A stretch of DNA of 33,966 nucleotides from Planctomycetota bacterium (GTDB lineage: Bacteria > Planctomycetota > UBA8108 > SXIK01): assembly GCA_016209535.1 (NCBI GenBank), contig JACQVW010000030.1, forward strand, positions 1-33,966, in the 5' to 3' direction. Position 1 is the stretch's first letter; each line of letters starts with the position of its first letter. The notes below the pieces were generated by a model. It was not told the origin of the DNA. It ran no database searches and worked only from the letters and a program-made list of their open reading frames with translations. Of this stretch, positions 1-21,613 are shown piece by piece. The position numbers were made by a program, and so were the translations under genes.

Positions 1-569
1 ACCGAGTCGAGGAACCTCGGGAAGTCCTCCCGCGCGCCCTCGTCCGCCCGGAATGCGAGGTCGAGGAGCAGGGCCCGGTCGATGCGGTCGCGGTTGTCCT
101 TGAAGGCCTTGATGAAGTCCGCCACGTCCTGGTGCTTGTCGCCAGGTCGGCGCCACGGCGACACCGCCGCGAGGTACTTGAGGGCCAGGAGGACCTCCAC
201 GGTGGCCACCTTGACGCCTCCCGCGACCACCTTGCGGTCGAGGGCGACCCCGAAGAGCTCGTGGCTCTGGCTCTTGATCACGTCCGCCTCGAGCCGCATG
301 GGATCCGGCGAGAGCGTGCCGTGGAAGTTGACCACCGTCCCCTCGGGGGGACCGAGGGGGGAGGATTCTGTCTCCCGGAGGTCCGGGCAGGCCGCCTTGA
401 GGACCCTCTTCGCCTTGCGGAGGTCCTTCTCCCGCACCACCACGTCCACGTCCAGGGTGGCGCGCGGCCGCTTCAAGTAGTGGTTGACGGCCGCGGCGCC
501 CACGAGGACCCAGTCCACGCCCGCCGCCTCGAGCCCCGCGAAGAACTGCCTCGCCTTGTCAGGTAGCAT
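1..569 (-). CDS. minimal nucleotidyltransferase-fold protein. Partial: the C-terminus runs off the window start. An alternative upstream ATG at 707 is in frame.
   Basis: The minus-strand frame is open from 707 to the window edge with high GC3. Translation reads ...MLPDKARQFFAGLEAAGVDWVLVGAAAVNHYLKRPRATLDVDVVVREKDLRKAKRVL... The 'hhhhGG.Ah..YG..R.T.DhDhhh' pattern is typical of minimal NTases such as AbiEii or type IV TA-like NTases. A GGAAGAAAGG SD lies ~10 nt before the ATG at 569. The track does not list this ORF because it has no stop inside the window. Confidence 0.5.
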   Translation of the reverse strand, partial: MLPDKARQFFAGLEAAGVDWVLVGAAAVNHYLKRPRATLDVDVVVREKDLRKAKRVLKAACPDLRETESSPLGPPEGTVVNFHGTLSPDPMRLEADVIKSQSHELFGVALDRKVVAGGVKVATVEVLLALKYLAAVSPWRRPGDKHQDVADFIKAFKDNRDRIDRALLLDLAFRADEGAREDFPRFLDS

Positions 570-797
570 GCCGGCTTTCACCTTTCTTCCCCCCGCGCGG
601 ATGGCGTGCTGGACCTCGAGGGAGACGAGGCCCGCCTCCACGCCAAAGGGGAGAGGCTGGGAGCACCGGAACGGCCTGCGGCGGAGCATGGCAGTGGCTC
701 CGAGCATAGCACCCTTTTTCCGTTCCTCAAGGTAGCGCGGCACGCCGCGGCCCCGAACAACCTCCGACCGCCGGCGCGGCCCCGGCCAAGAAACCGC

Positions 798-827
798 TTG
801 CCGCTCGTCGGCCGCAGGCGGGATAAT
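798..827 (+). promoter_or_regulatory. candidate sigma70-like promoter, TTGCCG-N18-GATAAT, for the pup-like/pafA-like pair
   Basis: It sits in the divergent intergenic region 708-925. The GATAAT at 822-827 is a rare AT hexamer in ~70% GC DNA. Prediction is by eye only. Confidence 0.25.
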
Positions 828-925
828 GAGGACCTCCGAAGGGAAGGACGCAGCGGCCGCGAGACCGCGAAGAGAATGGGGCGCCGCCCGAGGGACGGGC
901 GGGCCCAGGAACGAAGGAACCGCTC

Positions 926-1126
926 ATGAACTCCGCTCTTGCGAAGAAGGCAGTCCAGGACGCCGGCACCACCGTGGACCTCGAGACCGAGCAGGCCGCG
1001 CCTCGCGAGGCGCGGGATGAACGCGCCGCCGCCCGGGCCGCGCTCCTCGCCAGGATCCTCGAGGATGCGCGCCGCGACGCAGACGGGTACGTCGGCCGTT
1101 ACATGGCCGGCCGCGGAGCCGAGTAG
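926..1126 (+). CDS. small Pup/UBact-like ubiquitin-like modifier candidate, 66 aa, with a C-terminal Glu
   Basis: ATG with an AAGGAA SD 6 nt upstream and GC3 of about 83%. Product is MNSALAKKAVQDAGTTVDLETEQAAPREARDERAAARAALLARILEDARRDADGYVGRYMAGRGAE. It is acidic and helical and ends in Glu. It lies 41 nt upstream of a PafA/Dop homolog and is co-oriented with it. Confidence 0.5.
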   Translation: MNSALAKKAVQDAGTTVDLETEQAAPREARDERAAARAALLARILEDARRDADGYVGRYMAGRGAE

Positions 1127-1167
1127 CCGCCCTCGAAGACCCTCTGGCGCCGAGAGGCCGTGACGCC

Positions 1168-3072
1168 GTGACGCAGGAGCGCCCCGCCATCCTCGGCCTC
1201 GAGACGGAGCACTTGCTCTTCTTCGCGCCGGACCCGTCTCGTGGCCCTCCGGCGGGCCCCGGCGACCCGCGGCCAGGGCTCACAGGTCCGGAGTTCCAGC
1301 TCGCCGAGAGCGTGCTCTTCGATTCCCTCCTCTCGGGCCGGAAGGCCGCCGTCTCGAGCGGCCTCAAGGGCGGCTACTTCCTCGAGAACGGAGGCCTGGC
1401 GCACCTGGAGATCTGCCTCCAGGGCCAGCACGACACGCCCATCCTCGAGATGTGCACGCCCGAATGCCGGGGCCCTCACGACCTCCTCCTCTACGCGCGC
1501 GCCGGCGATGCCATCCTCGAGGAGACGAGCCGGCGCTCGGAGGAGCGCCTCCGCTTCGGCGGGCACGAGGGCCGGATCGCCTTCGGCAAGAGCAACCGGG
1601 ACGCGCGGGGGGTCGGGTTCGGCTGCCACGAGAACTACCTCGTCCACCGGAAGGCGACCCGGACGGAGCAGGCGCTCGTGGCGCTCGCCATGCCCCTGCT
1701 TTTCGCCTGCTACCTCCCGGTCTTCCTGGTCTTCGTCGCCGTCCTCGTCCTGAGCTTCGCCTGGCTGGCCCTCACGAGGCTGCCCGCCCTGGAGGGGCTG
1801 GCCGCGCGCACCGCCCGCTGGCTGGCCGCGCGAGCCCCCTGGGTCCCGCGAGCCTGCCGCGGCGCCTACTTCGTCGCCACGACGGCGGTCCACTACCCGT
1901 TCTTCCAGATCTACTCCCTCCTGATCAAGGCCGCCCTGTTCCGGGTCTACATCCGGAGCCTCACGGCGCACCTCGTGACGCGGCAGGTCCTGACGGGCGC
2001 CGGACGCCTGGACTTCGAGAGGGGAGTCTACGAGCTGTCCCAGCGTGCGGGCCTCACGTCGAGCCTGGCGAGGATCGTCCTGTTCGGCAGGCGGAAGACC
2101 ATCTTCGATCTCAAGTGCCTCCTCTATGACCGCTCGGGCCTCCTCTCCTGCAAGGCCCCCCTGGCCCTCTTCCTCCCGACGAGGCGGCTGTCGATCGTCT
2201 CGGGCGATTCCAACCTCTCCGACGTCCCGAACCTCCTCAAGGTCGGGACCACGCTGCTCTTGATCGAGATGATCGAGGCCGGCGAGTCCTTCGATGACCT
2301 CCGCCTCGCGCGGCCCGTGCGGTCGATGCGCGCCGTCTCGCGCGAGGGGCCGTGGAAGCAGCTCCGCCTGCGCTCGGGGGAGACCCTGACGGCCCTGGAG
2401 GTCCAGCGCGAGCTCCTCCGGAGGGCCCAGACCTTCTTCCGGAGCCGCCCCGAGGGCAGGGTGCGCCACGGGGAGATCCTGCGGCTCTGGGAGGAGTGCC
2501 TGGAGGACCTCGCGGAGCGCCCCCAGGCGCTCGCGGACCGCCTCGACTGGGCCGCGAAGAAGTCCCTGCTGGACCGGCGGGTGCTGGCGACGACCAACTG
2601 GCGCGTCTTCTTCGCCTGGGGGAGGGTCTTCACGCTGGCGGGCCTCCGCGAGGTCGCCCGGGCGCCGGCCTTCGATGCCCTCCTGCGGAGGCTCGGGCCC
2701 TTGCGGCGGCTCCGCGTCCGGAGGGCCTTCGCCGCGGCCGGCCTCGACGCCTCGGAGTACCGCGCGCAGCGGGACCTCCACTTCGAGGCGCGCAAGATCG
2801 ACCTGCGCTACCACGAGCTGGGAGGAGAGTCGGGCTACCAGCGGCTCCTCGAGAAGGAGGGCTTCATCCGGCGGCTCACGGCGGACGAGGACGTGGCCCG
2901 CGCGGTGAAGTCACCTCCCTCGGACACGAGGGCCCGAGTGCGAGGGTACTACATCCAGCGGAGCCAGAGGCCCGACATGCTCCAGGTGAGCTGGAATGAG
3001 ATCGAGCTCATGAGCCCGCCCCGCAACATCCCGACGCCAGACCCCTTCGCGCACCGGCTGCCGGGGGAGTGA
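1168..3072 (+). CDS. PafA/Dop family protein (Pup ligase/deamidase homolog) with a ~100-aa hydrophobic insertion
   Basis: GTG start with a GAGAGG SD. Motifs include ILGLETEH, FLENGGLAHLE, GFGCHENYLV, LVTRQVLTGAGRLD, and a C-terminal ...SPPSDTRARVRGYY. All are characteristic of the glutamine-synthetase-like PafA/Dop fold, recalled from Mtb PafA/Dop. An insertion between HENYLV and LVTRQ contains TM-like stretches. Confidence 0.85.
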   Translation: MTQERPAILGLETEHLLFFAPDPSRGPPAGPGDPRPGLTGPEFQLAESVLFDSLLSGRKAAVSSGLKGGYFLENGGLAHLEICLQGQHDTPILEMCTPECRGPHDLLLYARAGDAILEETSRRSEERLRFGGHEGRIAFGKSNRDARGVGFGCHENYLVHRKATRTEQALVALAMPLLFACYLPVFLVFVAVLVLSFAWLALTRLPALEGLAARTARWLAARAPWVPRACRGAYFVATTAVHYPFFQIYSLLIKAALFRVYIRSLTAHLVTRQVLTGAGRLDFERGVYELSQRAGLTSSLARIVLFGRRKTIFDLKCLLYDRSGLLSCKAPLALFLPTRRLSIVSGDSNLSDVPNLLKVGTTLLLIEMIEAGESFDDLRLARPVRSMRAVSREGPWKQLRLRSGETLTALEVQRELLRRAQTFFRSRPEGRVRHGEILRLWEECLEDLAERPQALADRLDWAAKKSLLDRRVLATTNWRVFFAWGRVFTLAGLREVARAPAFDALLRRLGPLRRLRVRRAFAAAGLDASEYRAQRDLHFEARKIDLRYHELGGESGYQRLLEKEGFIRRLTADEDVARAVKSPPSDTRARVRGYYIQRSQRPDMLQVSWNEIELMSPPRNIPTPDPFAHRLPGE

Positions 3073-3219
3073 CGGCGGGCCGGGCCGGGGATGGCGCGCA
3101 GGCGGGGCCAGGTTCGGGAGAGGATCGGGATTGCACCGGTGGGGCCACCGTCGGTTAGACTGCACGGCTCGTAGGGTGACCTGGGTGTGTACAGGCTGAG
3201 GTTTGGGGAGGAAGTTCGC

Positions 3220-4572
3220 ATGGGAATGGGAAGGTCGGCGGCGTTCCTGCTGGGGCTCTTGGCGGGCTTGGAAGGCGTCGCGGCGGATGTCTACAGGCAG
3301 GAGGTCCTCAAGGACCGCCCGGTCGCGTACTGGCGGCTCGGGGAGGACGATCTCTTGGACGATGTCCGGAACGAGATGGGAGACGCCCTCAACGGGGAGT
3401 TCAAGCCCAACGAGAGAACAGGGCTCCAGCCCGGGTTCCCCGGCGCCATCGCCGGCGACGATGACACGGCGGTCCGGTTCCAGACGATCCCGGGCTTCGC
3501 GTGCCACGACTGCGGGCAGATCCAGGTGCCCCGGGACGGAGCCCTCGACCTCGGCCTGGCGGAGACCGACGCGACGATCACCCTCGAGGCGTGGTTCAAG
3601 CTGCTCCCGGACTCCTGCGACACTCTCCCCCGGCCGACCGCCTTCCCGCGCATCTTCCACTACAACAACGCCGCGCTCGGCCAGTACGCATTCGGCGTCG
3701 TGGGCGACGACAGCGCCGGTTATCCGGACCGGCGTTCGGTCTGGGCCGCGGCGGGGGACGGCGACGGCATCGGCGGCGTGATCAAGGCGGCCCCCACCGA
3801 CACGCTGCGGCCGAACGGCGCCGAAGAGTGGCGTCACTTCGTCGCGACCATCGTGGGAGGCGACATCCGCCTCTTCCTCGACGGGGAGGAGATCACGGAC
3901 GTCGAGGACTCGGACCCGATCTACTGGCAGTTCCCCCAGGCCACGATCGGCGGCAGGATCCAGAGCGACGGCATCAGCTTCGTGCAGGGCTTCCCGGGCC
4001 TCATCGACGAGCTGGCGGTCTACGACCACGTCCTGTCGATAGAGCGGATCCAGGCGCACCACGCCACGGGCGGGCAGCCCACCGCGAGGCCCCTGGCGAC
4101 GCCGTCGCAAGGCGACGCGCCCCTGACCGTGGACTTCGACGGAACCGGCTCGACGACGGCGCCGGGGACGACCATCGTGGGCTACGAGTGGTCCTTCGGC
4201 GACGGGGGGTCAGCCACGGGCTCCAAGGCGACGCACACCTACACGGCCCCAGGCAGGCACGTGGCGACCCTCACGGTCAATAACGACCGGGGTGGAGCCT
4301 CGGGGGCGACGATCGACCTCGGACTGCGCTTCCCCGAGGGAGACGTGGCGCCCTGGGCCGCGGCCGACATCGGGATGCCCGACATGCCAGGCGGCTCGCG
4401 CCTCGACGGCGACCGGTGCCTGGCGCTCCTCGCGGGGTCGAGGGGCCCCGACGCCGCATGGCCCGACGGCTGCCGTTTCGTCTACCAGGAGCGCGCCGGG
4501 AGCTTCGGCGTCACCGCAAGGGTCTCGACGCTGGCGCTGGATCCGGAAGGCTCTCCGGCGCCGCGGCCGTGA
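3220..4572 (+). CDS. secreted LamG-like/PKD/ConA-like jelly-roll protein, N-terminal 450 codons. This is a fragment of a frameshifted gene that continues in another frame to 5225.
   Basis: GGGGAGGAAG SD, then ATG. Signal peptide is MGMGRSAAFLLGLLAGLEGVAA. A LamG-type motif (…GFPGLIDELAVYDHVLSIERIQAHH) is followed by a PKD domain (LTVDFDGTGS…YEWSFGDGGSATG…HTYTAPGRHVATLTVNNDRGG). Then comes the first half of a DUF1349-like ConA-like domain (W..ADIG.P..PG...DGD...L.AGS.G.D.W...D...FVYQERAGSFGVTARVSTL), which stops abruptly at 4572. Confidence 0.8.
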   Translation: MGMGRSAAFLLGLLAGLEGVAADVYRQEVLKDRPVAYWRLGEDDLLDDVRNEMGDALNGEFKPNERTGLQPGFPGAIAGDDDTAVRFQTIPGFACHDCGQIQVPRDGALDLGLAETDATITLEAWFKLLPDSCDTLPRPTAFPRIFHYNNAALGQYAFGVVGDDSAGYPDRRSVWAAAGDGDGIGGVIKAAPTDTLRPNGAEEWRHFVATIVGGDIRLFLDGEEITDVEDSDPIYWQFPQATIGGRIQSDGISFVQGFPGLIDELAVYDHVLSIERIQAHHATGGQPTARPLATPSQGDAPLTVDFDGTGSTTAPGTTIVGYEWSFGDGGSATGSKATHTYTAPGRHVATLTVNNDRGGASGATIDLGLRFPEGDVAPWAAADIGMPDMPGGSRLDGDRCLALLAGSRGPDAAWPDGCRFVYQERAGSFGVTARVSTLALDPEGSPAPRP

Positions 4573-5225
4573 TGGTGCGCTCGAGCTTGGACCCAGGGAG
4601 CGCCCTCGCCGCCGTGGGCTTCGTGAGGTGGCGCGAGGCGACCCAGATCAAGCTCGTGGGCCGGACCAGCGACGGAGCGGGGCTGGTCGTCGACGCGCCG
4701 GTGGCGCTGGACATGGTCTCGCCGGATGCCTTCCTGCGCCTCGAGCGCAAGGGCCGGGACATCGTGGCGTCCGTGTCGGCGGACGGCGTCGCCTTCGTCC
4801 AGGCAGGCCGCGTCGCGCTGTGCGCGCCGCCGGATTCCCTGCTCGCCGGCGTGGCCGTCGCGCCCGCCCGCGCCAGGTGTCTTGGGGACGCGGCGGCGAC
4901 GTTCTGCGATCTGGCCTGGACCGAGCTCGGGCCGCTGCCAGCGCAGCCCTTCCACCGCGGCGACGCCGACGCGAACGGTCTCCTCGAGCTCACCGACGCG
5001 GTCTTCGTCCTGGAGTACTTGTTCCTCGGCAGGTGCGCCTCGCCGTGCCTCGACGCCGCCGACGCCGACGACTCCGGCCGCCTCGACATCACCGACGCCG
5101 TGCGCATCCTCGGGTTCCTCTTCCTCGGCGCCGCCCCGCCCCCGCCCCCCGGCCCGCCCGGGGAAGACTGCGGCCCCGACCCGGGCAGCGTGCACCTGGG
5201 GTGCGAGGCGTACGGAGGGTGCTGA
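4569..5225 (+). CDS. C-terminal fragment of the same frameshifted gene: the second half of the ConA-like jelly roll plus the dockerin-like/tri-Cys C-terminal module. Its open frame reaches upstream to 4416.
   Basis: Frame +2 reads ...AAAVMVRSSLDPGSALAAVGFVRWREATQIKLVGRTSDGAGLVVDAP…DGVAFVQAG. This is the continuation of the 'ITARV…AKAGLMIRESLDP' jelly-roll consensus. It is followed by GDADANGLLELTDAVFVLEYLFLG…DADDSGRLDITDAVRILGFLFLG and the PPPPPGPPGEDCGPDPGSVHLGCEAYGGC tail. Confidence 0.75.
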   Translation: MMVRSSLDPGSALAAVGFVRWREATQIKLVGRTSDGAGLVVDAPVALDMVSPDAFLRLERKGRDIVASVSADGVAFVQAGRVALCAPPDSLLAGVAVAPARARCLGDAAATFCDLAWTELGPLPAQPFHRGDADANGLLELTDAVFVLEYLFLGRCASPCLDAADADDSGRLDITDAVRILGFLFLGAAPPPPPGPPGEDCGPDPGSVHLGCEAYGGC

Positions 5226-7814: not shown

Positions 7815-9197
7815 TTGAGACTACCTTTCCTTGACCGCCGCCTCGAGCTGGAGGCTCTCCGGCGCGGGATCTCGGCACCGGGTGGAGGCCTTGTGGTCCT
7901 GTACGGCCGGAGGCGCTGCGGGAAGTCGAGGCTCTTGCTCGAGGCGCTCAAGGGGCACCCTACCGCCTACTATGTCGGGGATGAGCGAGAGGGCAGCACG
8001 CAGAGGCGAAGCCTCAGCCGCGCCATATCGAGCCTCATCCCGGGCTTCGACCGGGTGATGTACTCGGACTGGGAGGCGCTCCTCGACCGCTGGGCAAGGG
8101 AGGCCCCGGCGGACGCGATCCTGGCCTTGGACGAGTTCCAGTACATGGCTGCTTGCTCGCCCGAGCTCGCGAGCCTCCTCCAGAAACAGGTGGATGCGCC
8201 ACGGGAGAAGCCCTTCCGCGTGGTCCTCTGCGGCTCGTCGCAGCGCATGATGCACGGCCTTGTCCTCGACGCTTCGGCGCCTCTATACGGAAGGGCGCGG
8301 GAGATCATCAAAATCGGGCCCTTGGCCCCTGGCTGGATCCGTGATGCTTTCCCATCGTGGAGCACACAGCAGCTCCTCCATGCCTACGCCGCCTGGGGAG
8401 GTGTCCCCCGTTACTGGGAGCTCGCCGCGCAGTTCAAGTCCACCGGCGAGGCCCTTCACCGGATGCTTCTCGATCCTCTGGGCGTCCTCCGAGATGAGCC
8501 TTCGAGGCTGCTCCTGGACGACAAGAAAGAGATCGCCCAAGCGTCCTCGATCCTCAGCTTGATCGGTGAGGGCTGCCACAAGCTCTCCGAGATCGCAGGG
8601 AGGCTCGGGAGGCCGGCGACCTCGCTGTCGCGGCCCCTGGCCAGGCTCGCGGACCTAGGCCTCGTCAAGAGGGAAGTCCCCTTCGGGACCTCCGAGAAGG
8701 AGAGCAGGCGCTCCCTCTACAGGATCGCCGATCCCTTCCTCTCCTTCTGGTTCCGGTTCGTGGATCCCAAGCGTGCGTTGATCGAAGCGCGCCAGGAGGG
8801 AGCGCTCGATGAGGATCTCCGGCGCTTCTTCCCGTCGCATCTGGGCGAGGTCTGGGAAGAGCTTTCGCGGGCGAGCGTGTCCCGACTCACGATCGGAAGG
8901 ACGCGGTGGCGGCCGGCTGCACGCTGGTGGGGCCCCGGGCTCGACCGCCAGCCTCTCGAGTTGGACATCGTCGCGCTCTCCGAGGACGGGTCCCGCTACC
9001 TCGCCGGGGAAGCCAAGCTTCAGGTCAGGGCGAGGGAGTGGCCAACCGTTGTCTCGAAGCTCAAGTCGAGGATCGCGCGCTGTCCGGTCCTCGACGGAAA
9101 GCAGGTCGTATCCGCAATCTGGTGCGCGAGCGGGCGGGGCCGCCGGCGCGACGTCCCCACGGTGAGCGTGGCGGACGTGCTCGCGGCGCTGAAGTGA
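7815..9197 (+). CDS. AAA+ ATPase of the Arch_ATPase (PF01637) + DUF234 family
   Basis: TTG start. Walker A is LYGRRRCGKSRLL and Walker B-like is AILALDEFQ. The C-terminal region is DUF234-type (…YRIADPFLSFWFRFV…). It is a paralog of the gene at 22697-24145. Confidence 0.9.
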   Translation: MRLPFLDRRLELEALRRGISAPGGGLVVLYGRRRCGKSRLLLEALKGHPTAYYVGDEREGSTQRRSLSRAISSLIPGFDRVMYSDWEALLDRWAREAPADAILALDEFQYMAACSPELASLLQKQVDAPREKPFRVVLCGSSQRMMHGLVLDASAPLYGRAREIIKIGPLAPGWIRDAFPSWSTQQLLHAYAAWGGVPRYWELAAQFKSTGEALHRMLLDPLGVLRDEPSRLLLDDKKEIAQASSILSLIGEGCHKLSEIAGRLGRPATSLSRPLARLADLGLVKREVPFGTSEKESRRSLYRIADPFLSFWFRFVDPKRALIEARQEGALDEDLRRFFPSHLGEVWEELSRASVSRLTIGRTRWRPAARWWGPGLDRQPLELDIVALSEDGSRYLAGEAKLQVRAREWPTVVSKLKSRIARCPVLDGKQVVSAIWCASGRGRRRDVPTVSVADVLAALK

Positions 9198-9980: not shown

Positions 9981-12900
9981 CTATCGACAGGCCGTCGGAC
10001 AGCCCTGGACCCTCACGCAGCTCGTGCCCCGCGAGGGCACGGGGCCGCCGCGGAAGAGGAAGTTGAGGAGGTAGACCGCGTCCGAGACGTTCACGCTCTC
10101 GTCGCCGTTCAGGTCCAGGATCGTCTTGTTGCCGCCGTCCGTCACCGACGTGCCCTCGCAAGGAAGAGGCTTCGATGCCCCGAGGAAGAGGCGCAAGAGG
10201 AGCGAGAGGCCGTCCGACACGTCCAGCACGCCGTCCTGGTTCGAGTCGCCGGGGAGCTGGAGGCCGCCCGAGTTGGGAGCGCCGTCGTCGGAGCCCGGCG
10301 AGCCGCCCTCGAAGTTGCTCGTGCGCCAGCTTTCCTTCAGACCCCAGCTCGAAAGCTCCGCGCCGGGGTCGACGATGGTCAAGGACATGCCGAGGCCGTC
10401 CGTCTCCGGGTACCAGAGGTCGTCGTAGGCGAAGGCGAGGATCGGCTCCTTGAAGGGGCCCTCGAGGACGATCTCCTCGCCGGCGTTCGAGAGGTTCCCG
10501 TCGTAGGCGCCGGCGACGAGGATCCCCGCTGTCCCGTAGAGGAGCTCGAAGGCGGCCGGGTCCTTCACGAGGACCACGTACCCGCCGGGGGCGAGCGCCG
10601 TCCCGGGCCCGAAGACGAACGAGACCGACCCGCTCAGGCGGAAGCCCTCGAGGTCCAGGGGCTGGGAGCCCACGTTCTGGAGCTCGATGAACTCGAAGTC
10701 CTGGGAGCCGTAGGTGCTGTCGGGCAGCGGGTTCACGGGGTGGTACATGATCTCGCTCACGACGAGGGGCGGCGTCGCGACGACGAACGTCGCGTCCGTG
10801 GGCCCGCTCCAGTTGCTCGTGCTGATCCGGGCCCTGGCGATGACGCGCGTGTTCTCGTCGAGGACGATGGCGCCCGAGTACTGGGCCGCCGTCGGTCCCA
10901 TCGCCCCCCCGGGAGCGCGCGGGTCCCTGCCGTCGAGGGTGTAGAAGATCGTGCCCGCGGGAGCGCTGATCGCGAGGTTGAACCCCGGCGCGATGGGCCC
11001 GCCGTTCCGGGTGAACGACGGGGCGACGGGGTAAAGCCCATCCCACCACACGAGGCGGTCCTGCACCCAGTCCGTCATGAAGTTGAGCTCGTCCTGGTAA
11101 GTCTGGCCGATGTACCAGTTCGGCCACACGCGGGTCCCGAGGGTCCGCCAGCGCTGGAAGTTCCTCTGCTGCGATTCGTCGAGGAGGACCGCGGCCTCAT
11201 CGATGTCGTTGAGGAGGATGCTCGTCTGGAAGGGCCCGCGGCGAAGCACGGTCCACCGGTCGCGGTACTTCTGGACGAACTCGGGGTCCTGGAAAAGGCG
11301 GCCGTACCAGGGATAGTCGCCCGCCGAGAGCTGCGGGTAGTAGAAGCCCGTGGCGATCCAGCCCTGGAGGTAGTCCGCGTTGCCCAGCGAGAGGTTGTAG
11401 TCCCAGATCGGGCCCATGTTGAGCTTGCCGCCGCGGTCCTTGTACATGAACGTGCTCAGGCGGAAGCCGTCGATGTTCTTCGTGACCTCCACCAGGATGT
11501 GGTGATCGATGAAGGAGTCGACGTCGATGTACTTCGCGTAGCCGTTCACGGGGTCCTTGAAGTTGGTCCCGTAGAGCACCGACTCGAACTCATCCAGGTA
11601 CGCCTTGATCCAGGCCCTCTGGGCCGGCGTGATGAATTCCTCCTTGGGGTCCACATAGCCGAGCCTGTGCCCCTGGCTCGTGGTCATGCCGCCGTCGCCG
11701 GGGTCGAGGCGGTCCTTCTTCAAGATGTAGCCGCCCGTGATGTCGGGCTCCGCCGAGTCCGAGGCATCCAGGTTCTTGATGTCGACCCGGTCGTCCCCTC
11801 GCTTGATCTTCTCCATGAAGACGTAGACGCCGATGTAGTCCCCCGAGTCGATGTTGCCGCCTCCCGAGTTCAGGTACATCTCGACGAACTTCGTGTGGGT
11901 GGCCCAGCGGCCGATCCGGTTCGACCAGGTGTAGGAGAGGTGGTTCCGCATGAGGGTCTTGTCGGAGTACGGCCCGTGGAGGATCCAGTCGGAGTCCTCG
12001 GGCATGCCGAGGAAGGAGACGTCCATGTCGCTCCCCAGCGCATCGCGGACCTCGAAGGCGTAGTTGTTCTTGGGAAAGCCCAGGGAGCTCGAGCCCCGCT
12101 TCTTGATCGCCGTGGTCCCCGTGAAGGTCGGGGTCCCGGTCATGGAGGTCCTCCCGGTCGCCCCGGGCTCGAGCATGGCCGAGAAGGAGCTCGTCCAGAC
12201 GGCGTCGTTGATGCCCTGACCGAAGGTCTCGACGACGAGGACCGGCAGGTTCGACGTGAAGGTGCGGACGTTGGTCGCGAGCATGAGGTACGACTGGACC
12301 ACGGTGGGGCTCGGCGCGAAGCCCGCCTCGAAGGCCTTCGCGCGGACCATGGTCGTGCCCGCGATCGAGATCGGCGCGGAGTAGAGCGTGGAAGCCTCGG
12401 TGGGCTCCGAGCCGTTCGTGGTGTAGCGGATCGCGGCGCCCGGCGTCGGCGAGGTGAGGGTCAAGCTGAAGCTCGCCGTGATCATGCCGCTCGATTTCGA
12501 GAACTGGGGGCGGGTCGAGACGCCCGGGTAGCCCGCCAGGTTGCCCAGGCGCGGCGTGGGCTTCGTGAAGAAGTGCCTCGTGCTCCGGTCCAGGGTGCCC
12601 GAGGCCGAGGCGTCGAGCTCGGGGAGGACGAGGAAGTCGGAGCTCGTGGCGTTCGCGTTGAGCCCGTGGACCGCGAGCACGTTCTGCCCGCTCCGGAGGC
12701 GCCCCACCTCGCTCGAGATGTTGACCTCCTCGAAGATCACGGCGAGCGCGTCGTCGTGCTGCGCCGTGGCCGCGGAGCTCCAGGCCGGGGCTGCGGGCGC
12801 GTTCCGCTCGGCGACCTTCGTGCCGTTCAGGTAGGCGATGTACCCGTCGTCGTACTTGGTGTGCAGGAAGAGCCCCGTGTACTGGGAGGGGTCCGTGACG

Positions 12901-13589
12901 CTGAAGGGGACCCGGAGGTACGCCGTGGTCGCCACACCGTCCATCTGCGACCGGACATCGAGCTCGATGAGGCTCGTGTAGTCGGGGTTCCGGTCGTAGC
13001 CGAGGCCCGTCGAGCCCGAGAGCCAGCCCGAGTCGGAGAACGAGACCTGCGTCCAGGTCGTCCCGAGGGACCCGTCCTGCGGCACCAGGGCCTTCGCCGC
13101 GGCGCCCGAGACGACGAGGTTCGTGAGGGTGGCCTCCTGCTTGAGGCCGTAGGACATGTCTTCGATCTGAGGCGGGTACGGCGCGTACTCGTAGACCACG
13201 GTGACCCCATCGGGCTTGACGAGAGCGAGGTACCCGCCCGCCGCGTCGAGCTTGAAGCCCGTGTGGAGCGTCCCCGCCGGGTCTCTGCGGTCCTTGCCCG
13301 AGGCGAAGACCACGATGAAGTTGTCGGCCGGCAGGCTGACCGACGGGAAGCGCCACTTCGTGGGGTTCGCCGCGTCGTCGGTGAGGCACCACCCGCTCAG
13401 GTTCGCGCTCGTCGTCCCGGCGTTGTAGACCTCGATCCAGTCCGAGTCGTCCCCGTCCTCGTCGGTGAGCACTGTCTCGTTCGCCGCCATCAGCTCGGTG
13501 ATCACGAGGTCCTGGGCTCGGGAGCCGGCCGAGAGCCCCAGGAGGAGGCAGAGGGACGCGGCGCCGGTGTGGTGCGTGCTGGACTTCAT
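9981..13589 (-). CDS. secreted CotH-family (atypical kinase-like) protein with N- and C-terminal lamin-tail domains, a chitobiase-C-like Fn3 domain and the dockerin-like/tri-Cys C-terminal module. 1202 aa. An alternative upstream start at 13649 is in frame.
   Basis: Signal peptide is MKSSTHHTGAASLCLLLGLSAGSRAQD. The LTD is ITELMAANE…DWIEVYN…LSGW.L. CotH core motifs are …YAFEVRDALG…WILHGPYSDKTLMRNHLSYTWSN…YIGVYVFMEKIKR…GGYILKKD…DHHILVEVTKNIDGFR…. A second LTD is VVSEIMYHP…FEFIELQN. The stop is 3 nt from the start of the 9204-9977 gene, so they form an operon. Confidence 0.9.
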   Translation of the reverse strand: MKSSTHHTGAASLCLLLGLSAGSRAQDLVITELMAANETVLTDEDGDDSDWIEVYNAGTTSANLSGWCLTDDAANPTKWRFPSVSLPADNFIVVFASGKDRRDPAGTLHTGFKLDAAGGYLALVKPDGVTVVYEYAPYPPQIEDMSYGLKQEATLTNLVVSGAAAKALVPQDGSLGTTWTQVSFSDSGWLSGSTGLGYDRNPDYTSLIELDVRSQMDGVATTAYLRVPFSVTDPSQYTGLFLHTKYDDGYIAYLNGTKVAERNAPAAPAWSSAATAQHDDALAVIFEEVNISSEVGRLRSGQNVLAVHGLNANATSSDFLVLPELDASASGTLDRSTRHFFTKPTPRLGNLAGYPGVSTRPQFSKSSGMITASFSLTLTSPTPGAAIRYTTNGSEPTEASTLYSAPISIAGTTMVRAKAFEAGFAPSPTVVQSYLMLATNVRTFTSNLPVLVVETFGQGINDAVWTSSFSAMLEPGATGRTSMTGTPTFTGTTAIKKRGSSSLGFPKNNYAFEVRDALGSDMDVSFLGMPEDSDWILHGPYSDKTLMRNHLSYTWSNRIGRWATHTKFVEMYLNSGGGNIDSGDYIGVYVFMEKIKRGDDRVDIKNLDASDSAEPDITGGYILKKDRLDPGDGGMTTSQGHRLGYVDPKEEFITPAQRAWIKAYLDEFESVLYGTNFKDPVNGYAKYIDVDSFIDHHILVEVTKNIDGFRLSTFMYKDRGGKLNMGPIWDYNLSLGNADYLQGWIATGFYYPQLSAGDYPWYGRLFQDPEFVQKYRDRWTVLRRGPFQTSILLNDIDEAAVLLDESQQRNFQRWRTLGTRVWPNWYIGQTYQDELNFMTDWVQDRLVWWDGLYPVAPSFTRNGGPIAPGFNLAISAPAGTIFYTLDGRDPRAPGGAMGPTAAQYSGAIVLDENTRVIARARISTSNWSGPTDATFVVATPPLVVSEIMYHPVNPLPDSTYGSQDFEFIELQNVGSQPLDLEGFRLSGSVSFVFGPGTALAPGGYVVLVKDPAAFELLYGTAGILVAGAYDGNLSNAGEEIVLEGPFKEPILAFAYDDLWYPETDGLGMSLTIVDPGAELSSWGLKESWRTSNFEGGSPGSDDGAPNSGGLQLPGDSNQDGVLDVSDGLSLLLRLFLGASKPLPCEGTSVTDGGNKTILDLNGDESVNVSDAVYLLNFLFRGGPVPSRGTSCVRVQGCPTACR

Positions 13590-14009
13590 GCGTAGGTAGT
13601 GCTCTTTTTGTGGTTCGCGGACAGACCCTGCGTCGATGGACGCACCCAATGGTAGCCGCTGGGTTTGCGGGAAGACAACTGGGTTTTCGAGGGGCGGCCG
13701 GCGCGAAGCTCATGGCCGAGTCCCCCCCCGGCGTCGCCGCAGCGAGGCCTACCGCCGTCCTTTGCTGTGACCTCGGCGAAACACGGCCACCGGCCCCCCC
13801 CTTGCGATCGGCGGGTCACAGGATACCGTGTGATGAAGGCCATGGATCCTACGCTCGTACTGATCCGCCCGGCGTCCGCCGGACGGAGTCGCCAGGGGAG
13901 TGAGCACCTTCGTGACGCTCCGCTCGACGGCGCCAGGGGCTGCCGCCAAGCTCCCGAGCGGCCGCAGCGTCAGGACGGTTGCCGGAGGCGTGCACTGGCG
14001 CGGCCCCCC

Positions 14010-15953
14010 TCACGGGTGCTCCTTCCCCTTCCGCAAGGGCTCGACGCGCCAGGCGGCCTCGGGGCCGAAGCGGAGCTTGCGGCCGGAGTGCCCCGCGTGC
14101 TTGTCGCCGTAGAGAGCGCGTACGGTCCAGGTCTGGAGCAGGACGGCGAGGACCGCCGCAGCGCAGCCGGCGCAGGCCGCGCGGGTGATGAGGCGCGCTG
14201 CGCCGCGGGGATCCGGCAGCACCGCGGGAGCCCCATCGCCGGGACGCGGCAGGGCGAGGACGAGCACGGTGACGAGCGCCGCGTTCACGGCGATGACCCC
14301 CTCCGTGAGGAGCCGCCCCTCGCCGAAGCCGGCGAGGGCCCGCTCGAAGTTCCCGGAGACCATCCACCAGAGAAAGAGCACGTAGAGGAGCTGGCCCCGC
14401 CCCAGGGCCGTCTCCGGCGCCACCGCGAGCCGCCGCCGCGAGTGGAGGACGAGGAGGAGCACCGCCGCGGCGGCGATGAGCCCGTAGACGAGGTGGAACC
14501 AGGCCGAAGCCGAGAGGTCCACGCTCGCGAAGAGCGGCGCCCGCATGCGCGCGGGAACGGCGCGGGCCTCGACCCACGTCTCCACGTTCTTCACGAGGTT
14601 CAGGTACGTCACGCCGAGGAGGACGAAGGCCACGGAGAAGCCCTCGTACCACCGTGGCCGCTCGGGCACGGCGCCGGTGAGGCGCGGGAGGCGGGTCGCG
14701 AGGATCGCGAGGGCCACGGCGATCCCGAGGCCGTTCACGAGGCCGTAGCTCTGCTCGAGGAAGCTGTGCCAGTTCGCCGACTGCCAGTGAGCCCAGGCGG
14801 CGACCTCCGCGGGGTCTGCGCCGCGGGCGGGATTGCCCGGAGCCACGAGGACGAGCTTGAGCCACGCCGCGCCCGAGAAGCCCAGCCCCCCGGCGGCGCC
14901 GCTCACGAGGGAGGCGAGGACCACGGGCGCGAAGCCGCTCCGCGCGAGCCAGAGGGTCGCTCCGCCGCAGACGCCGAGGATCCCCGCCCAGTCGTCGCCG
15001 CGGGGCGGCGTCATGCGGGCGCCGAGGAGGACGGGGAGGAGGAGGAAGCCCGCCCACCAGCCGAGCGCCATGTGGAGGAGGAGGGAGGAGCCCGCCCGGA
15101 AGCGTCCCCAGCGAAAGAAGTACGCACCCGCGCCGGCCGCGAGGCCCAGGGCCCAGCCGAGGTGCCGCGACGCGAGGGGCAGGAAGCCGGGCCAGTTCGT
15201 CAGCAGCTCGCCCCGCGCCCACATCGACGGGTCGCCCTCGAGGCGCACGAGCCAGCCCGCGACGGCCGCATCGAGGCCCGCGAGCTCCAGGAGCCACTGG
15301 AGCGCGAAGCCCGCGGCGGCCCCGGCGGCCGCGAGGAGCGCGAGGCGGTCGAGCCTCTCGAAGCGCCGGTCGGCGAGGTCGAAGAGGAGGAGGGCGGCGA
15401 CCGCCGAGAGGGCCGGGATCCAGTCCGCGTCGAACCAGTAGAGGAGGCTCTCGTGGCGCTGCGCGCCCACCGCGGCCCCCTCGAGGCCGCGCTCGACCGC
15501 GGGCAGCGCCAGGTCCACGGCGACCCACGCTCCGAGGACCCAGAGGAGCGGCCGGAAGAGCCCGCGCAGCCGCTCCTCATCCGCCGCGGCCGCGAACGCC
15601 GTGCCCGCCCCGCCGAGGGCCGCCCAGAGGAAACCGATCGCGAAGAGGCAGGCGAAGCCGTAGACCTGCGAGGGCAGGTGCCCCGAGTGGGTGTAGGCGA
15701 TGACCTGGCCGTAGGACATGGACCCGCCGAAGGCCCAGCCCAGCGCGCCGAGGAGGGCGAAGAAGGGCGCGCGGCGGCGCCAGTCCTCGCGCCCCGAGAA
15801 GAGGCACGCCGCGAGCGCCGCGAGCGCGCCGGGCACCATCGCGCCGTACTCGTGGCCGAAGTTGCCCCGGATGCCCCAGCCGATCGAGAGGCTGAGCGCG
15901 ACGGCGAGGAGGGCCGCCGGCCGGAGGAGCGCGGTGGATGGTGGCTTGTCCAT
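14010..15953 (-). CDS. Trp-rich polytopic integral membrane protein of unknown family, ~648 aa with >12 predicted TM segments. An alternative GTG start is at 15971.
   Basis: Hydrophobic segments recur throughout (LLAVALSLSIGWGI, FFALLGALGWAFGG, LLWVLGAWVAVDLAL …). The frame has a coherent, strongly hydrophobic amino-acid composition, unlike the overlapping shadow frames. Confidence 0.75.
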   Translation of the reverse strand: MDKPPSTALLRPAALLAVALSLSIGWGIRGNFGHEYGAMVPGALAALAACLFSGREDWRRRAPFFALLGALGWAFGGSMSYGQVIAYTHSGHLPSQVYGFACLFAIGFLWAALGGAGTAFAAAADEERLRGLFRPLLWVLGAWVAVDLALPAVERGLEGAAVGAQRHESLLYWFDADWIPALSAVAALLLFDLADRRFERLDRLALLAAAGAAAGFALQWLLELAGLDAAVAGWLVRLEGDPSMWARGELLTNWPGFLPLASRHLGWALGLAAGAGAYFFRWGRFRAGSSLLLHMALGWWAGFLLLPVLLGARMTPPRGDDWAGILGVCGGATLWLARSGFAPVVLASLVSGAAGGLGFSGAAWLKLVLVAPGNPARGADPAEVAAWAHWQSANWHSFLEQSYGLVNGLGIAVALAILATRLPRLTGAVPERPRWYEGFSVAFVLLGVTYLNLVKNVETWVEARAVPARMRAPLFASVDLSASAWFHLVYGLIAAAAVLLLVLHSRRRLAVAPETALGRGQLLYVLFLWWMVSGNFERALAGFGEGRLLTEGVIAVNAALVTVLVLALPRPGDGAPAVLPDPRGAARLITRAACAGCAAAVLAVLLQTWTVRALYGDKHAGHSGRKLRFGPEAAWRVEPLRKGKEHP

Positions 15954-16055
15954 GTGCCCGGGTTCGGGCACAGTGTACGCAAGACGGCGAGCCGTGAGAA
16001 TCCTCCACGACGAGAACCTGCCTTACATCGCCGCGCTGGAGCCGGGGGATCGGCC

Positions 16056-21541: not shown

Positions 21542-21613
21542 GCCCCGCCAAGGGTAACCGCCCGGCGCCGCGGGCACCAGATAGCGGGACCACAAACCCC
21601 GCCCGTGGCCTCC

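What the first reader, a model, noticed from the sequence alone, without database searches (positions are those of the whole stretch)
926..3072. Stand-alone Pup/UBact-like small protein with a PafA/Dop-family ligase that carries a membrane-type insertion
A 66-aa acidic, helical ORF ending in ...YVGRYMAGRGAE (C-terminal Glu) sits 41 nt upstream of a 634-aa protein with unmistakable PafA/Dop motifs: GLETEH, GFGCHENYLV, LVTRQVLTGAGRL, …DTRARVRGYY. A small modifier immediately preceding pafA is the arrangement described for Pup in actinobacteria, and for the Pup homolog UBact in Gram-negative phyla. My memory of the UBact C-terminal consensus is uncertain. A C-terminal Glu would make the modifier ligation-competent without a deamidase.

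Two things are unusual. First, the tail is GAE, not the canonical GG[QE]. Second, the ligase has an insertion of about 100 aa exactly between the HENYLV and LVTRQ blocks (nt ~1650-1960). The insertion contains long hydrophobic stretches: ALVALAMPLLFACYLPVFLVFVAVLVLSFAWLALT and YFVATTAVHYPFFQIYSLLIKAALF. Actinobacterial PafA/Dop have only ~20 aa at this position. This suggests a membrane-tethered pupylation-like enzyme. No Mpa/ARC, proteasome subunits or second Dop/PafA paralog are in the window.
Basis: partly seen in the sequence, partly recalled or inferred. Interest (0 to 1): 0.8.

Follow-up and report, generated by a model that had tools for sequence, protein, structure and literature searches.

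The report
Membrane-anchored Pup-like tagging gene pair
A planctomycete carries a small tag protein ending in glutamate next to a Pup-ligase-type enzyme with a built-in membrane anchor; the pair is real and conserved, but this architecture was already predicted from genomes in 2008 and has never been tested experimentally.

Summary
A 66-aa ORF (926-1126) ends in ...GRGAE. It lies 41 nt upstream of a 634-aa Pup_ligase-family protein (1168-3072; Pfam E=1.5e-83).

- **The ligase.** It has a ~95-aa hydrophobic helical insertion (aa 163-257) directly after the HENY strand. The insertion is present in all 34 clade members aligned, so it is not an artefact.
- **The small ORF.** It is a real gene. A homolog ending in C-terminal Glu lies directly upstream of the ligase in 13 of 13 loci. 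An exhaustive profile search finds 86 small proteins (87 tails with one earlier homolog), all matching to their own C-terminus: GAE 69, GGE 16, TGE 1, QGE 1.
- **Relation to Pup and UBact.** The Pfam Pup and UBact models miss it. Profile-profile comparison aligns it in register with Pup, scoring 18.6 against 7.5 ± 1.7 for shuffles.
- **Context.** No proteasome, Mpa or second PafA/Dop gene is in the window or in the sequenced flanks of the 12 related loci.

Iyer, Burroughs and Aravind (2008) already described TM-inserted Pup ligases with an adjacent Pup and no proteasome linkage in Rhodopirellula and Plesiocystis. This is a new member, in a distinct subclade, of a known but untested kind. The subclade differs in its GAE tail, a second insertion and a Glu at the catalytic Asp position. 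Membrane topology and targets remain unknown. Interest is moderate.

The parts
926..1126 (+). Pup-like small modifier gene (66 aa, stop included). Residues 1-26 are variable and modelled at low confidence. The C-terminal half is conserved and ends ...ILEDARRDADGYVGRYMAGRGAE*.
   Evidence: ORF and sequence. Homologs lie directly upstream of the ligase in L001-L009, L046, L050, L051, L054 and L055. NCBI calls it a hypothetical protein. The AF2 model has helices at 27-50 and 52-64 with pLDDT 81-89.
1037..1123 (+). Conserved C-terminal motif of the modifier (aa 38-66): R-x-x-[ILV]-[ILF]-x-x-[IL]-L-x-D-A-x5-Y-V-x-x-[YW]-x-x-G-R-G-A-E. The terminal Glu is the predicted ligation site.
   Evidence: D47, Y55, G64 and E66 are invariant in alignment A5. 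All 86 hits of the exhaustive profile search match through to their own C-terminus, and all tails end in Glu. The motif aligns in register with Pup's ...FVxxFVQKGG[QE].
1127..1167 (+). 41-nt intergenic spacer. The two genes share a strand and are probably co-transcribed (inferred).
   Evidence: Sequence. The same tight tandem arrangement occurs in all related loci, with gaps from 2 nt to about 100 nt.
1168..3072 (+). PafA/Dop-family carboxylate-amine ligase (634 aa) with two clade-specific insertions.
   Evidence: PF03136 E=1.5e-83. About 72 homologs of 615-670 aa at 42-62% identity. AF2 pLDDT 88.9, pTM 0.90. Foldseek top hits are Dop 4b0r and PafA-Pup 4bjr, E about 1e-24.
1168..1653 (+). N-terminal part of the catalytic core (aa 1-162). 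Contains GhExE (G10-E14), E81 at the catalytic-Asp position, E94/P98/E99, and H154-E155-N156-Y157 on the strand that precedes the insertion.
   Evidence: These residues are invariant or nearly so in 34 clade members. Aligned to Dop and PafA.
1654..1938 (+). Insertion 1 (aa 163-257), the putative membrane anchor. AF2 models four helices: 165-202, 206-222, 225-256 and 259-271.
   Evidence: Absent from Dop and PafA. Found at the same site in the Pirellula type, the P0094 type and a Vulcanimicrobiota protein. Helices.
1669..1773 (+). Strongly hydrophobic block (aa 168-202, ALVALAMPLLFACYLPVFLVFVAVLVLSFAWLAL) with two nearly invariant prolines, P176 and P184.
   Evidence: Kyte-Doolittle 19-residue peak of 2.92. 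An equivalent block of 27-46 aa (mean 37, by alignment columns) occurs in all 34 clade members.
1774..1866 (+). Arg-rich segment between the two hydrophobic helices (aa 203-233).
   Evidence: Mean net charge +4.6 (K+R 6.3) across 34 sequences. This conflicts with a periplasmic location under the positive-inside rule.
1867..1935 (+). Second, moderately hydrophobic helix (aa 234-256, YFVATTAVHYPFFQIYSLLIKAA).
   Evidence: Kyte-Doolittle 1.6-2.4 in most clade members, with no acidic residues. Part of AF2 helix 225-256.
2575..2757 (+). Insertion 2 (aa 470-530). A helical insertion in the C-terminal domain (W478..FFAWG...), specific to this subclade.
   Evidence: Absent from Dop and PafA (query 470-530 against Dop 371-373). 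Also absent from the Pirellula and P0094 types; present only in the window clade and P0073. Modelled as helices 478-547 at pLDDT above 90.

Best explanation
This is a two-gene, proteasome-independent, membrane-anchored pupylation-like module.

The 66-aa protein is a divergent Pup homolog whose C-terminus is already Glu, so no deamidase is needed. The adjacent enzyme is a single-copy PafA/Dop-family carboxylate-amine ligase.

By analogy with PafA, the enzyme would bind the modifier's C-terminal helix-kink-helix. It would phosphorylate the side-chain carboxylate of the terminal Glu with ATP, then transfer it to an amine, most likely the epsilon-amino group of lysines. All of this step is inferred.

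The helical insertion that emerges right after the active-site HENY strand holds the enzyme at the cytoplasmic face of the membrane. The targets should therefore be membrane or membrane-proximal proteins (inferred). With no Mpa or proteasome linked, the tag probably regulates function or localisation rather than feeding a proteasome. Hand-off to another protease is also possible.

Shown here: both genes are real, they are coupled, the fold and most of the catalytic residue set are conserved, and the hydrophobic insertion is conserved.

Inferred: ligase activity, membrane insertion and topology, and the identity and fate of targets.
For: - **Enzyme family and fold.** PF03136 E=1.5e-83. The AF2 model has pLDDT 88.9 and matches Dop and PafA-Pup crystal structures at E about 1e-24, target TM-score 0.74-0.86.
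- **Catalytic residues.** GhExE, HENY, R272, D347, R588 and R592 are invariant or nearly so in 34 clade members.
- **Gene coupling.** A small ORF ending in Glu lies directly upstream of the ligase in 13/13 loci reached from the ligase side. The same holds in 2/2 loci reached from the small-protein side.
- **Family signature.** All 86 significant profile hits among 1.84 billion representatives are 43-124 aa and match to their last residue. None ends in Gln.
- **Pup similarity.** Profile-profile score against 11 actinobacterial Pups is 18.6, in register. Column shuffles give 7.5 ± 1.7 with a maximum of 14.1, and 0/300 reach the observed score. The known Pup-UBact pair scores only 10.9 on the same measure.
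- **Modifier structure.** Modelled as a low-confidence N-terminus plus two C-terminal helices, matching the bihelical Pup core described in PMC2588565.
- **Insertion.** Conserved, strongly hydrophobic, and at the same site in several planctomycete clades.
- **Context.** No proteasome, Mpa or second paralog in the window or in the fetched flanks of related loci.
- **Prior prediction.** The same conclusion was reached for Rhodopirellula and Plesiocystis (PMC2588565). A single-copy PafA/Dop paralog in Planctomycetes is reported in PMC7947786.
- **Precedent.** Proteasome-free regulatory pupylation occurs in Corynebacterium (PMC10991733).
Against: - The curated Pup, UBact, PafA and Dop models do not accept these proteins as members.
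- With only the window's own subclade of small ORFs, the Pup similarity is weak: 13.0, reached by 3/150 shuffles.
- The catalytic Asp of PafA/Dop is an invariant Glu here (E81), next to a 7-residue loop insertion. The alpha-loop that discriminates ligase from hydrolase is diverged. Chemistry and nucleophile could therefore differ.
- The penultimate residue is Ala, not Gly.
- Topology is unresolved. The segment between the two hydrophobic helices carries net +4.6, which argues against a simple two-pass hairpin.
- No biochemical data exist for any member in the literature searched.
- Only the window and 4-10 kb flanks of related loci were examined. A proteasome elsewhere in these genomes is not excluded.
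Confidence: 0.7

Rival explanations
1. The enzyme is mainly a Dop-like depupylase or deamidase, or is bifunctional, rather than a dedicated ligase.
For: It is as similar to Dop as to PafA: PDB phmmer 1.6e-38 against 1.3e-36, with Foldseek 4b0r as the top hit. P98 is the Dop-type residue at Hecht position 15. Hecht et al. report that the planctomycete paralogs partly align with the Dop-loop and root the PafA/Dop tree.
Against: None of the 87 modifier tails ends in Gln, so there is nothing to deamidate. Only one family member is linked to the modifier in every locus examined. A hydrolase without a ligase would have no substrate. F71 and L80 are PafA-type residues. The discriminating positions are mixed, as expected for an outgroup.
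Confidence: 0.12
2. The acceptor is not a protein lysine but a membrane or envelope amine, such as a phosphatidylethanolamine or ornithine-lipid headgroup, or a small-molecule amine. The small protein would then become lipid-anchored or otherwise derivatised at the membrane.
For: The anchor emerges within about 10 residues of the active-site HENY strand, placing the catalytic cradle at the membrane surface. The catalytic Asp is replaced by Glu and the alpha-loop is remodelled across all TM-inserted clades. The wider superfamily (GCS2/YbdK, glutamine synthetase) uses small amines.
Against: There is no direct evidence. The closest characterised relatives all act on protein lysines. The modifier keeps the Pup-like binding helices.
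Confidence: 0.06
3. The hydrophobic insertion is not a membrane anchor. It would instead be a buried oligomerisation or regulatory element of a soluble enzyme.
For: The loop between the hydrophobic helices is strongly positive (net +4.6), which violates the positive-inside rule for a two-pass hairpin. AF2 models the block as one 38-residue helix, longer than a bilayer is thick.
Against: Kyte-Doolittle peaks of 2.4-3.4 over 27-55 residues in every member are typical of membrane segments, not soluble interfaces. The sequence is poorly conserved (majority fraction 0.42 against about 0.66 in the core) while hydrophobicity is retained, which is the usual pattern for lipid-facing helices. The charge pattern also fits a monotopic or re-entrant hairpin entering from the cytoplasmic face.
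Confidence: 0.07
4. The small ORF is a chance ORF in a 70% GC genome, and the pairing is coincidental.
For: Many overlapping spurious ORFs occur in this region. No curated family matches the small ORF.
Against: It is conserved in position, orientation, size and C-terminal motif in 15 loci whose GC content ranges from 48 to 72%. All 86 profile hits end exactly at the motif. Several pipelines called the gene independently.
Confidence: 0.01

Closest known systems
TM-inserted Pup ligase plus Pup pairs of Rhodopirellula baltica and Plesiocystis pacifica (Iyer, Burroughs and Aravind 2008, Biol Direct 3:45; computational prediction only)
   Same: A PafA-family enzyme with a transmembrane-type insertion immediately after core strand 4. 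An adjacent small Pup-like gene ends in Glu. There is no linkage to proteasome genes. The predicted role is pupylation of membrane-associated proteins. The cultured relative Pirellula staleyi shows the same layout, with its insertion at the same alignment position.
   Different: The window's ligase is only 25-30% identical to the Pirellula and P0094 types, no closer than to actinobacterial PafA/Dop at 32-34%. It keeps HENY where the Pirellula type has QENY. It has a second ~60-aa helical insertion. Its modifier ends G-R-G-A-E rather than the G-[EQ] signature. No recurrent linked membrane-protein gene was found. I could not retrieve the Rhodopirellula or Plesiocystis sequences themselves.
Actinobacterial Pup-PafA-Dop system (for example PDB 4BJR PafA-Pup, 4B0R Dop)
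   Same: The same fold and ATP-binding and catalytic residue set. The modifier is a small protein with a disordered N-terminus, two C-terminal helices and a terminal Glu. The aromatic-V-x-x-aromatic motif aligns in register.
   Different: There is a single enzyme instead of a PafA plus Dop pair. It has two large insertions. Glu replaces the catalytic Asp, and the alpha-loop is diverged. The tail is one residue longer and ends GAE. The modifier is near-neutral rather than very acidic. Mpa and the proteasome are not linked. NCBIfam equivalog scores are far below cut-off: 225 against 551 for PafA and 199 against 492 for Dop.
UBact loci of Gram-negative phyla (Pfam PF20513; Mpa-Dop-UBact-PrcB-PrcA-PafA)
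   Same: A non-actinobacterial Pup-like modifier next to PafA/Dop-family genes, with a weak in-register profile similarity of 13.2.
   Different: The UBact HMM does not match. The UBact tail is ...RYRQRTG[QE], with a different aromatic spacing. UBact loci carry two soluble paralogs plus Mpa and both proteasome subunits, none of which is present here.
Proteasome-free pupylation in Corynebacterium (regulatory; ferritin)
   Same: A precedent that Pup tagging can work without a 20S proteasome (PMC10991733).
   Different: Corynebacterium keeps soluble PafA, Dop and the Mpa homolog. It has no membrane anchor.

Membership tests
Pup_ligase superfamily (Pfam PF03136; PafA/Dop carboxylate-amine ligases) | Profile HMM match above the curated cut-off | tested here: met
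   281.7 bits against a cut-off of 25, E=1.5e-83
Pup_ligase superfamily (Pfam PF03136; PafA/Dop carboxylate-amine ligases) | GhExE ATP-binding motif and the shared active-site residues (HENY strand, Arg of TRQ, GDSN Asp) | tested here: met
   G10, E12, E14, H154, E155, Y157, R272 and D347 are invariant or nearly so in 34 clade members. The motif definition comes from PMC7947786.
Pup_ligase superfamily (Pfam PF03136; PafA/Dop carboxylate-amine ligases) | Three-dimensional fold of Dop/PafA | tested here: met
   AF2 model pLDDT 88.9. Foldseek: 4b0r E=1.1e-24 with target TM-score 0.82; 4bjr E=1.3e-24 with 0.74.
Pup_ligase superfamily (Pfam PF03136; PafA/Dop carboxylate-amine ligases) | Catalytic Asp (C. 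glutamicum PafA D64, A. cellulolyticus Dop D94) | tested here: not met
   The aligned position is Glu (E81) in 34/34 clade members, and also Glu in the Pirellula and P0094 types. The change is conservative, and it lies next to a 7-residue loop insertion, so the alignment carries some uncertainty.
PafA proper (NCBIfam TIGR03686 equivalog) | Score above the equivalog cut-off | tested here: not met
   224.7 bits against a cut-off of 551.3
Dop proper (NCBIfam TIGR03688 equivalog) | Score above the equivalog cut-off, and presence of the Dop-loop | tested here: not met
   198.7 bits against a cut-off of 492.3. There is no ~40-residue Dop-loop at the position where P0093 and the L052 Dop have one.
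Pup (Pfam PF05639) | Profile HMM match | tested here: not met
   No hit at E<=10 for any of the 13 small ORFs. Profile-profile similarity to Pup is nevertheless above the shuffle controls.
Pup (Pfam PF05639) | C-terminal G-G-[QE] | tested here: not met
   The window tail is G-A-E. Family tails are GAE 69, GGE 16, TGE 1, QGE 1. The terminal Glu itself is invariant.
Pup (Pfam PF05639) | A small (50-90 aa) protein encoded next to a PafA-family gene, with a bihelical C-terminal part | tested here: met
   66 aa, 41 nt upstream of the ligase. Adjacent in 15/15 loci. AF2 helices at 27-50 and 52-64.
Pup (Pfam PF05639) | Covalent attachment to substrate lysines | not testable with these tools
   Requires biochemistry or proteomics.
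UBact (Pfam PF20513) | Profile HMM match and the ...RYRQR[TS]G[EQ] tail | tested here: not met
   No hit. PF20513 does recognise the genuine UBacts of L052 and L053. Tail and aromatic spacing both differ.
UBact (Pfam PF20513) | Locus with Mpa, Dop, PrcB, PrcA and PafA | tested here: not met
   None of these is in the window or in the related loci.
Membrane-anchored Pup ligase plus Pup pairs (Iyer et al. 2008) | Hydrophobic TM-type insertion immediately C-terminal to core strand 4 | tested here: met
   The insertion (aa 163-257) starts 5 residues after HENY. Kyte-Doolittle peak 2.92. It occupies the same site as in the Pirellula staleyi homolog.
Membrane-anchored Pup ligase plus Pup pairs (Iyer et al. 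2008) | Four transmembrane segments | tested here: inconclusive
   AF2 gives four helices. Only one is strongly hydrophobic and one moderately so. The charge pattern is ambiguous. No dedicated TM predictor was available.
Membrane-anchored Pup ligase plus Pup pairs (Iyer et al. 2008) | No genomic linkage to proteasome subunits | tested here: met
   Whole genomes could not be scanned.
Membrane-anchored Pup ligase plus Pup pairs (Iyer et al. 2008) | Linked gene for a membrane protein | tested here: not met
   Downstream genes differ between loci, and no recurrent TM protein was found.

The most novel reading that the evidence does not exclude
The membrane-embedded enzyme does not tag protein lysines. 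Instead it joins the modifier's terminal Glu to an amine-bearing membrane lipid or envelope component. That would be a bacterial counterpart of Atg8 lipidation, built from Pup-type parts. The remodelled active site (Glu for the catalytic Asp, a new alpha-loop, the GAE tail) would reflect the different acceptor.
Probability: 0.05. Interest if true: 0.85.

Novelty: new member of a known kind. Interest (0 to 1): 0.35.

Why it matters
Pupylation is understood almost entirely from actinobacteria, where it feeds the Mpa-proteasome. This module is the minimal form: one tag, one enzyme, a membrane anchor and no linked proteasome. It sits in a lineage that roots the PafA/Dop tree (PMC7947786).

Characterising it would show three things: what Pup-type tagging does without a proteasome, whether one enzyme can both write and erase the tag, and which membrane processes it controls in planctomycetes.

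Two practical points follow. First, the modifier family (86 cluster representatives in the profile search) has no curated model and is annotated only as 'hypothetical protein'. Second, a naturally membrane-anchored PafA-type ligase might be useful for PUP-IT-style proximity labelling at membranes.

The idea itself dates from 2008, so the value lies in better definition and a clear experimental route, not in discovery.

Tried and rejected
1. **Actinomyces 'long PafA'.** tblastn matches of about 2.6 kb looked like a longer PafA homolog. They are Dop-Pup-PafA tandems joined into one match. This lead is closed, though the loci supplied genuine Pup sequences.
2. **Conserved neighbours.** The only recurrent ones (5 of 9 loci) are coproporphyrinogen III oxidase and a Trp/Tyr-tRNA synthetase. 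They lie on the opposite strand and are absent from the window. I treat this as lineage synteny. A heme-pupylation review concerns actinobacteria only.
3. **Linked membrane-protein gene.** The gene reported by Iyer et al. was not found as a recurrent feature.
4. **Ligase or depupylase.** Classification with the Hecht et al. discriminating positions gave mixed, uninformative results.
5. **Family scans of the small ORF.** Pfam, NCBIfam and PADLOC gave no meaningful hits. The ligase also has no PADLOC hit, so a known defence system is unlikely.
6. **Unavailable resources.** The Iyer et al. supplementary alignments are not held as text. The AFDB50 fold library was unavailable. Cluster look-ups returned no organism names. 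I therefore could not place the Rhodopirellula or Plesiocystis proteins in my alignments, and used Pirellula staleyi as the cultured stand-in.


Full report
**Observation**

The window is a 70% GC contig that NCBI holds as a 'Planctomycetes bacterium' MAG. The first runs 926..1126 (+, ATG, 66 aa...YVGRYMAGRGAE*). The second runs 1168..3072 (+, GTG, 634 aa). They are separated by 41 nt. NCBI's own gene calls are identical: P0252 'hypothetical protein' and P0001 'PafA2 family protein'. Third-position GC supports both as coding, at 0.80 and 0.93.

The large protein matches Pfam Pup_ligase PF03136 at E=1.5e-83. It scores far below the NCBIfam equivalog cut-offs for PafA (225 against 551) and for Dop (199 against 492). 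The small protein hits nothing in Pfam, NCBIfam or PADLOC.

**The ligase and its insertions**

A homolog search found about 72 proteins of 615-670 aa at 42-62% identity. Scores then drop sharply to canonical 450-500-aa PafA/Dop. Alignments show two clade-specific insertions.

- Insertion 1 covers aa 163-257. Query residues 162 and 258 align to Dop residues 163 and 166.
- Insertion 2 covers aa 470-530. It corresponds to Dop residues 371-373.

Every one of 34 aligned clade members has a strongly hydrophobic block at insertion 1. The block measures roughly 27-55 aa depending on how it is delimited, with a Kyte-Doolittle peak of 2.4-3.4. Most members also have a weaker second block about 30 residues later. 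The insertion's sequence is poorly conserved (majority fraction 0.42 against about 0.66 in the core), but its hydrophobicity is kept.

AlphaFold2 with this alignment gives a confident model (pLDDT 88.9, pTM 0.90). The insertion forms helices 165-202, 206-222, 225-256 and 259-271. The model's best PDB matches are Dop (4b0r) and the PafA-Pup complex (4bjr), at E about 1e-24 and target TM-score 0.74-0.86. GCS2/YbdK and glutamine synthetases follow. The insertion is therefore neither a frameshift nor an alignment artefact.

**Active site**

GhExE (G10-E14), E94, P98, E99, H154-E155-N156-Y157, R272, D347, R588 and R592 are invariant or nearly so in the clade.

The position of the catalytic Asp of PafA/Dop is an invariant Glu (E81), followed by a 7-residue loop that carries an invariant D89. 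The same Glu occurs in the other insertion-bearing clades.

The positions that Hecht et al. use to tell ligase from hydrolase are mixed. F71 and L80 are PafA-like and P98 is Dop-like. The alpha-loop is diverged, with K310, T311, D314 and K316 invariant. That pattern fits their finding that the single-copy planctomycete paralogs root the PafA/Dop tree.

**The small ORF is a real, coupled gene**

In all nine planctomycete loci recovered with the ligase (L001-L009), a small ORF lies directly upstream and ends ...Y[VP]xx[YFW]xxG[RMS]G[AG]E*. The same arrangement holds in three more distant cases:

- a Phycisphaeraceae locus, ending ...RYLHQARQQQGE*;
- Pirellula staleyi DSM 6068, ending ...ENYLAESIVPFGGE*, 2 nt before the ligase;
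- the P0094 group, ending ...QEYLRDSVACTGE*.

An exhaustive HMMER profile search of 1.84 billion representatives returned 86 proteins at E<=0.001. All are 43-124 aa, and every match runs to the protein's last residue. Counting these plus one earlier homolog gives 87 tails: GAE 69, GGE 16, TGE 1 and QGE 1. None ends in Gln. Two of the new hits, looked up blind, are each followed by an insertion-bearing PafA-like gene.

**Is it Pup or UBact?**

The curated models say no. Neither PF05639 (Pup) nor PF20513 (UBact) hits any of the 13 small ORFs at E<=10. PF20513 does label the genuine UBacts in the canonical Mpa-Dop-UBact-PrcB-PrcA-PafA loci I fetched for comparison.

Profile-profile comparison gives a different picture. 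Against 11 Pups taken from actinobacterial loci, the score is 18.6 (P=0.002) and the alignment is in register: YVxxY matches FVxxFV, and the tail is one residue longer. Column shuffles give 7.5 ± 1.7 with a maximum of 14.1, and 0 of 300 reach the observed score.

Further scores put this in context:

| Comparison | Score | Shuffles reaching it |
|---|---|---|
| All 13 small ORFs vs Pup | 18.6 | 0/150 in this run (0/300) |
| All 13 small ORFs vs UBact | 13.2 | 0/150 |
| Window subclade (10) vs Pup | 13.0 | 3/150 |
| Pup vs UBact (positive control) | 10.9 | not run |

AF2 models the protein as a low-confidence N-terminus plus helices 27-50 and 52-64. That matches the bihelical Pup core described by Iyer et al..

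I conclude that the small protein is a divergent member of the Pup superfamily. It is closer to Pup than to UBact and forms its own family, for which no curated model exists.

**Context**

Pfam annotation of the window's genes found no proteasome, no Mpa-type AAA and no second Pup_ligase. All-against-all comparison of the flanks of ten loci found only one conserved unit, the modifier plus ligase pair. Coproporphyrinogen oxidase and a Trp/Tyr-tRNA synthetase recur in 5 of 9 loci on the opposite strand, but both are absent from the window. No membrane-protein gene recurs downstream.

**Prior knowledge**

[quoted passage not shown] Those ligases are adjacent to a Pup, are not linked to proteasome genes, and probably pupylate membrane-associated proteins (PMC2588565). 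Hecht et al. (2020) used the single-copy planctomycete paralogs as an outgroup (PMC7947786). I found no experimental work on such systems.

The insertion sits at the same alignment position in the window clade, the Pirellula type (including P. staleyi), the P0094 type and a Vulcanimicrobiota protein.

The window's subclade is nonetheless distinct:

- It is only 25-30% identical to those types, no closer than to actinobacterial PafA/Dop (32-34%).
- It retains HENY where the Pirellula type has QENY.
- It has insertion 2.
- It pairs with GRGAE-type tags rather than GGE- or TGE-type tags.

**Mechanism**

The best-supported reading is a minimal, proteasome-independent, membrane-anchored Pup-type conjugation module. 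The tag's terminal Glu is ligation-ready. The enzyme would activate it with ATP and transfer it to amines, most probably lysines of membrane-proximal proteins. The outcome is probably regulatory, as in proteasome-free Corynebacterium. Enzymatic activity, acceptor and fate are all inferred.

Topology is unresolved. The main hydrophobic block is too long for one span and mostly too short for two. It contains two nearly invariant prolines, P176 and P184. The segment that follows it carries net +4.6. This fits a monotopic or re-entrant hairpin entering from the cytoplasmic face at least as well as it fits a two-pass hairpin.

**Verdict**

The finding is a new member, in a distinct and better-defined subclade, of a kind predicted computationally in 2008. 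Interest is moderate at 0.35. The system is experimentally untouched and mechanistically attractive, but a specialist would not be surprised by it.

Noticed in passing
window 7815-9197 (+); also 22697-24145 (-) and 30341-31534 (-): The window holds three paralogous 'archaeal ATPase' (ATPase_2/AAA_22) genes. The first also carries DUF234 and a winged-helix domain, and matches the PADLOC candidate defence system PDC-S27 at E=3.9e-28. None is Mpa-like.
   Followed up: partly
window 3-923 (-): An AbiEii-like nucleotidyltransferase (type IV toxin-antitoxin or abortive-infection toxin) lies divergent from the modifier gene. It is cut off by the window edge (Pfam E=1.6e-5, PADLOC E=2e-4). It is not conserved next to the module in other loci.
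   Followed up: partly
window 14010-15971 (-) and 13665-17294 (+): The 1209-aa plus-strand ORF is mostly the antisense shadow of a 653-aa multi-TM protein on the minus strand. That minus-strand protein has GC3 of 0.95 and no Pfam hit. This explains the strong AT skew at 14-16 kb. Only the last ~400 aa of the plus-strand ORF look genuine, as a PD40 beta-propeller protein.
   Followed up: partly
window 3187-4572 (+) and 4416-5225 (+): A signal-peptide LamG/PKD protein overlaps, by 157 nt in another frame, an ORF with dockerin-like D-x-D-x-N-G repeats. This could be a frameshift in a single secreted protein or two overlapping genes.
   Followed up: no
L001, L005, L006, L008, L009 (about 0.5-3.5 kb upstream of the modifier, minus strand): Coproporphyrinogen III oxidase and a Trp/Tyr-tRNA synthetase recur divergently upstream of the module in 5 of 9 related loci, but not in the window. 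This is probably lineage synteny. A link to heme metabolism is speculative.
   Followed up: partly
L010-L049 (Actinomyces and relatives): The tblastn matches of about 2.6 kb are Dop-Pup-PafA tandems, with Pup (...FVQGFVQKGG[QE]) lying between the two paralogs. They are not one long protein.
   Followed up: yes
alignment A4: P0189, P0192, P0209, P0161, P0150, P0094 and relatives: The Pirellula-type and P0094-type membrane PafA homologs have Gln in place of the His of the otherwise near-universal HENY motif (G-A-Q-E-N-Y-E). The window's clade keeps His.
   Followed up: no
window 9981-13649 (-) and 18434-21595 (-): Two large multidomain genes: a 1222-aa CotH kinase with lamin-tail and Fn3-associated domains, and a 1053-aa beta-lactamase/amidohydrolase fusion. 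They appear unrelated to the finding.
   Followed up: no
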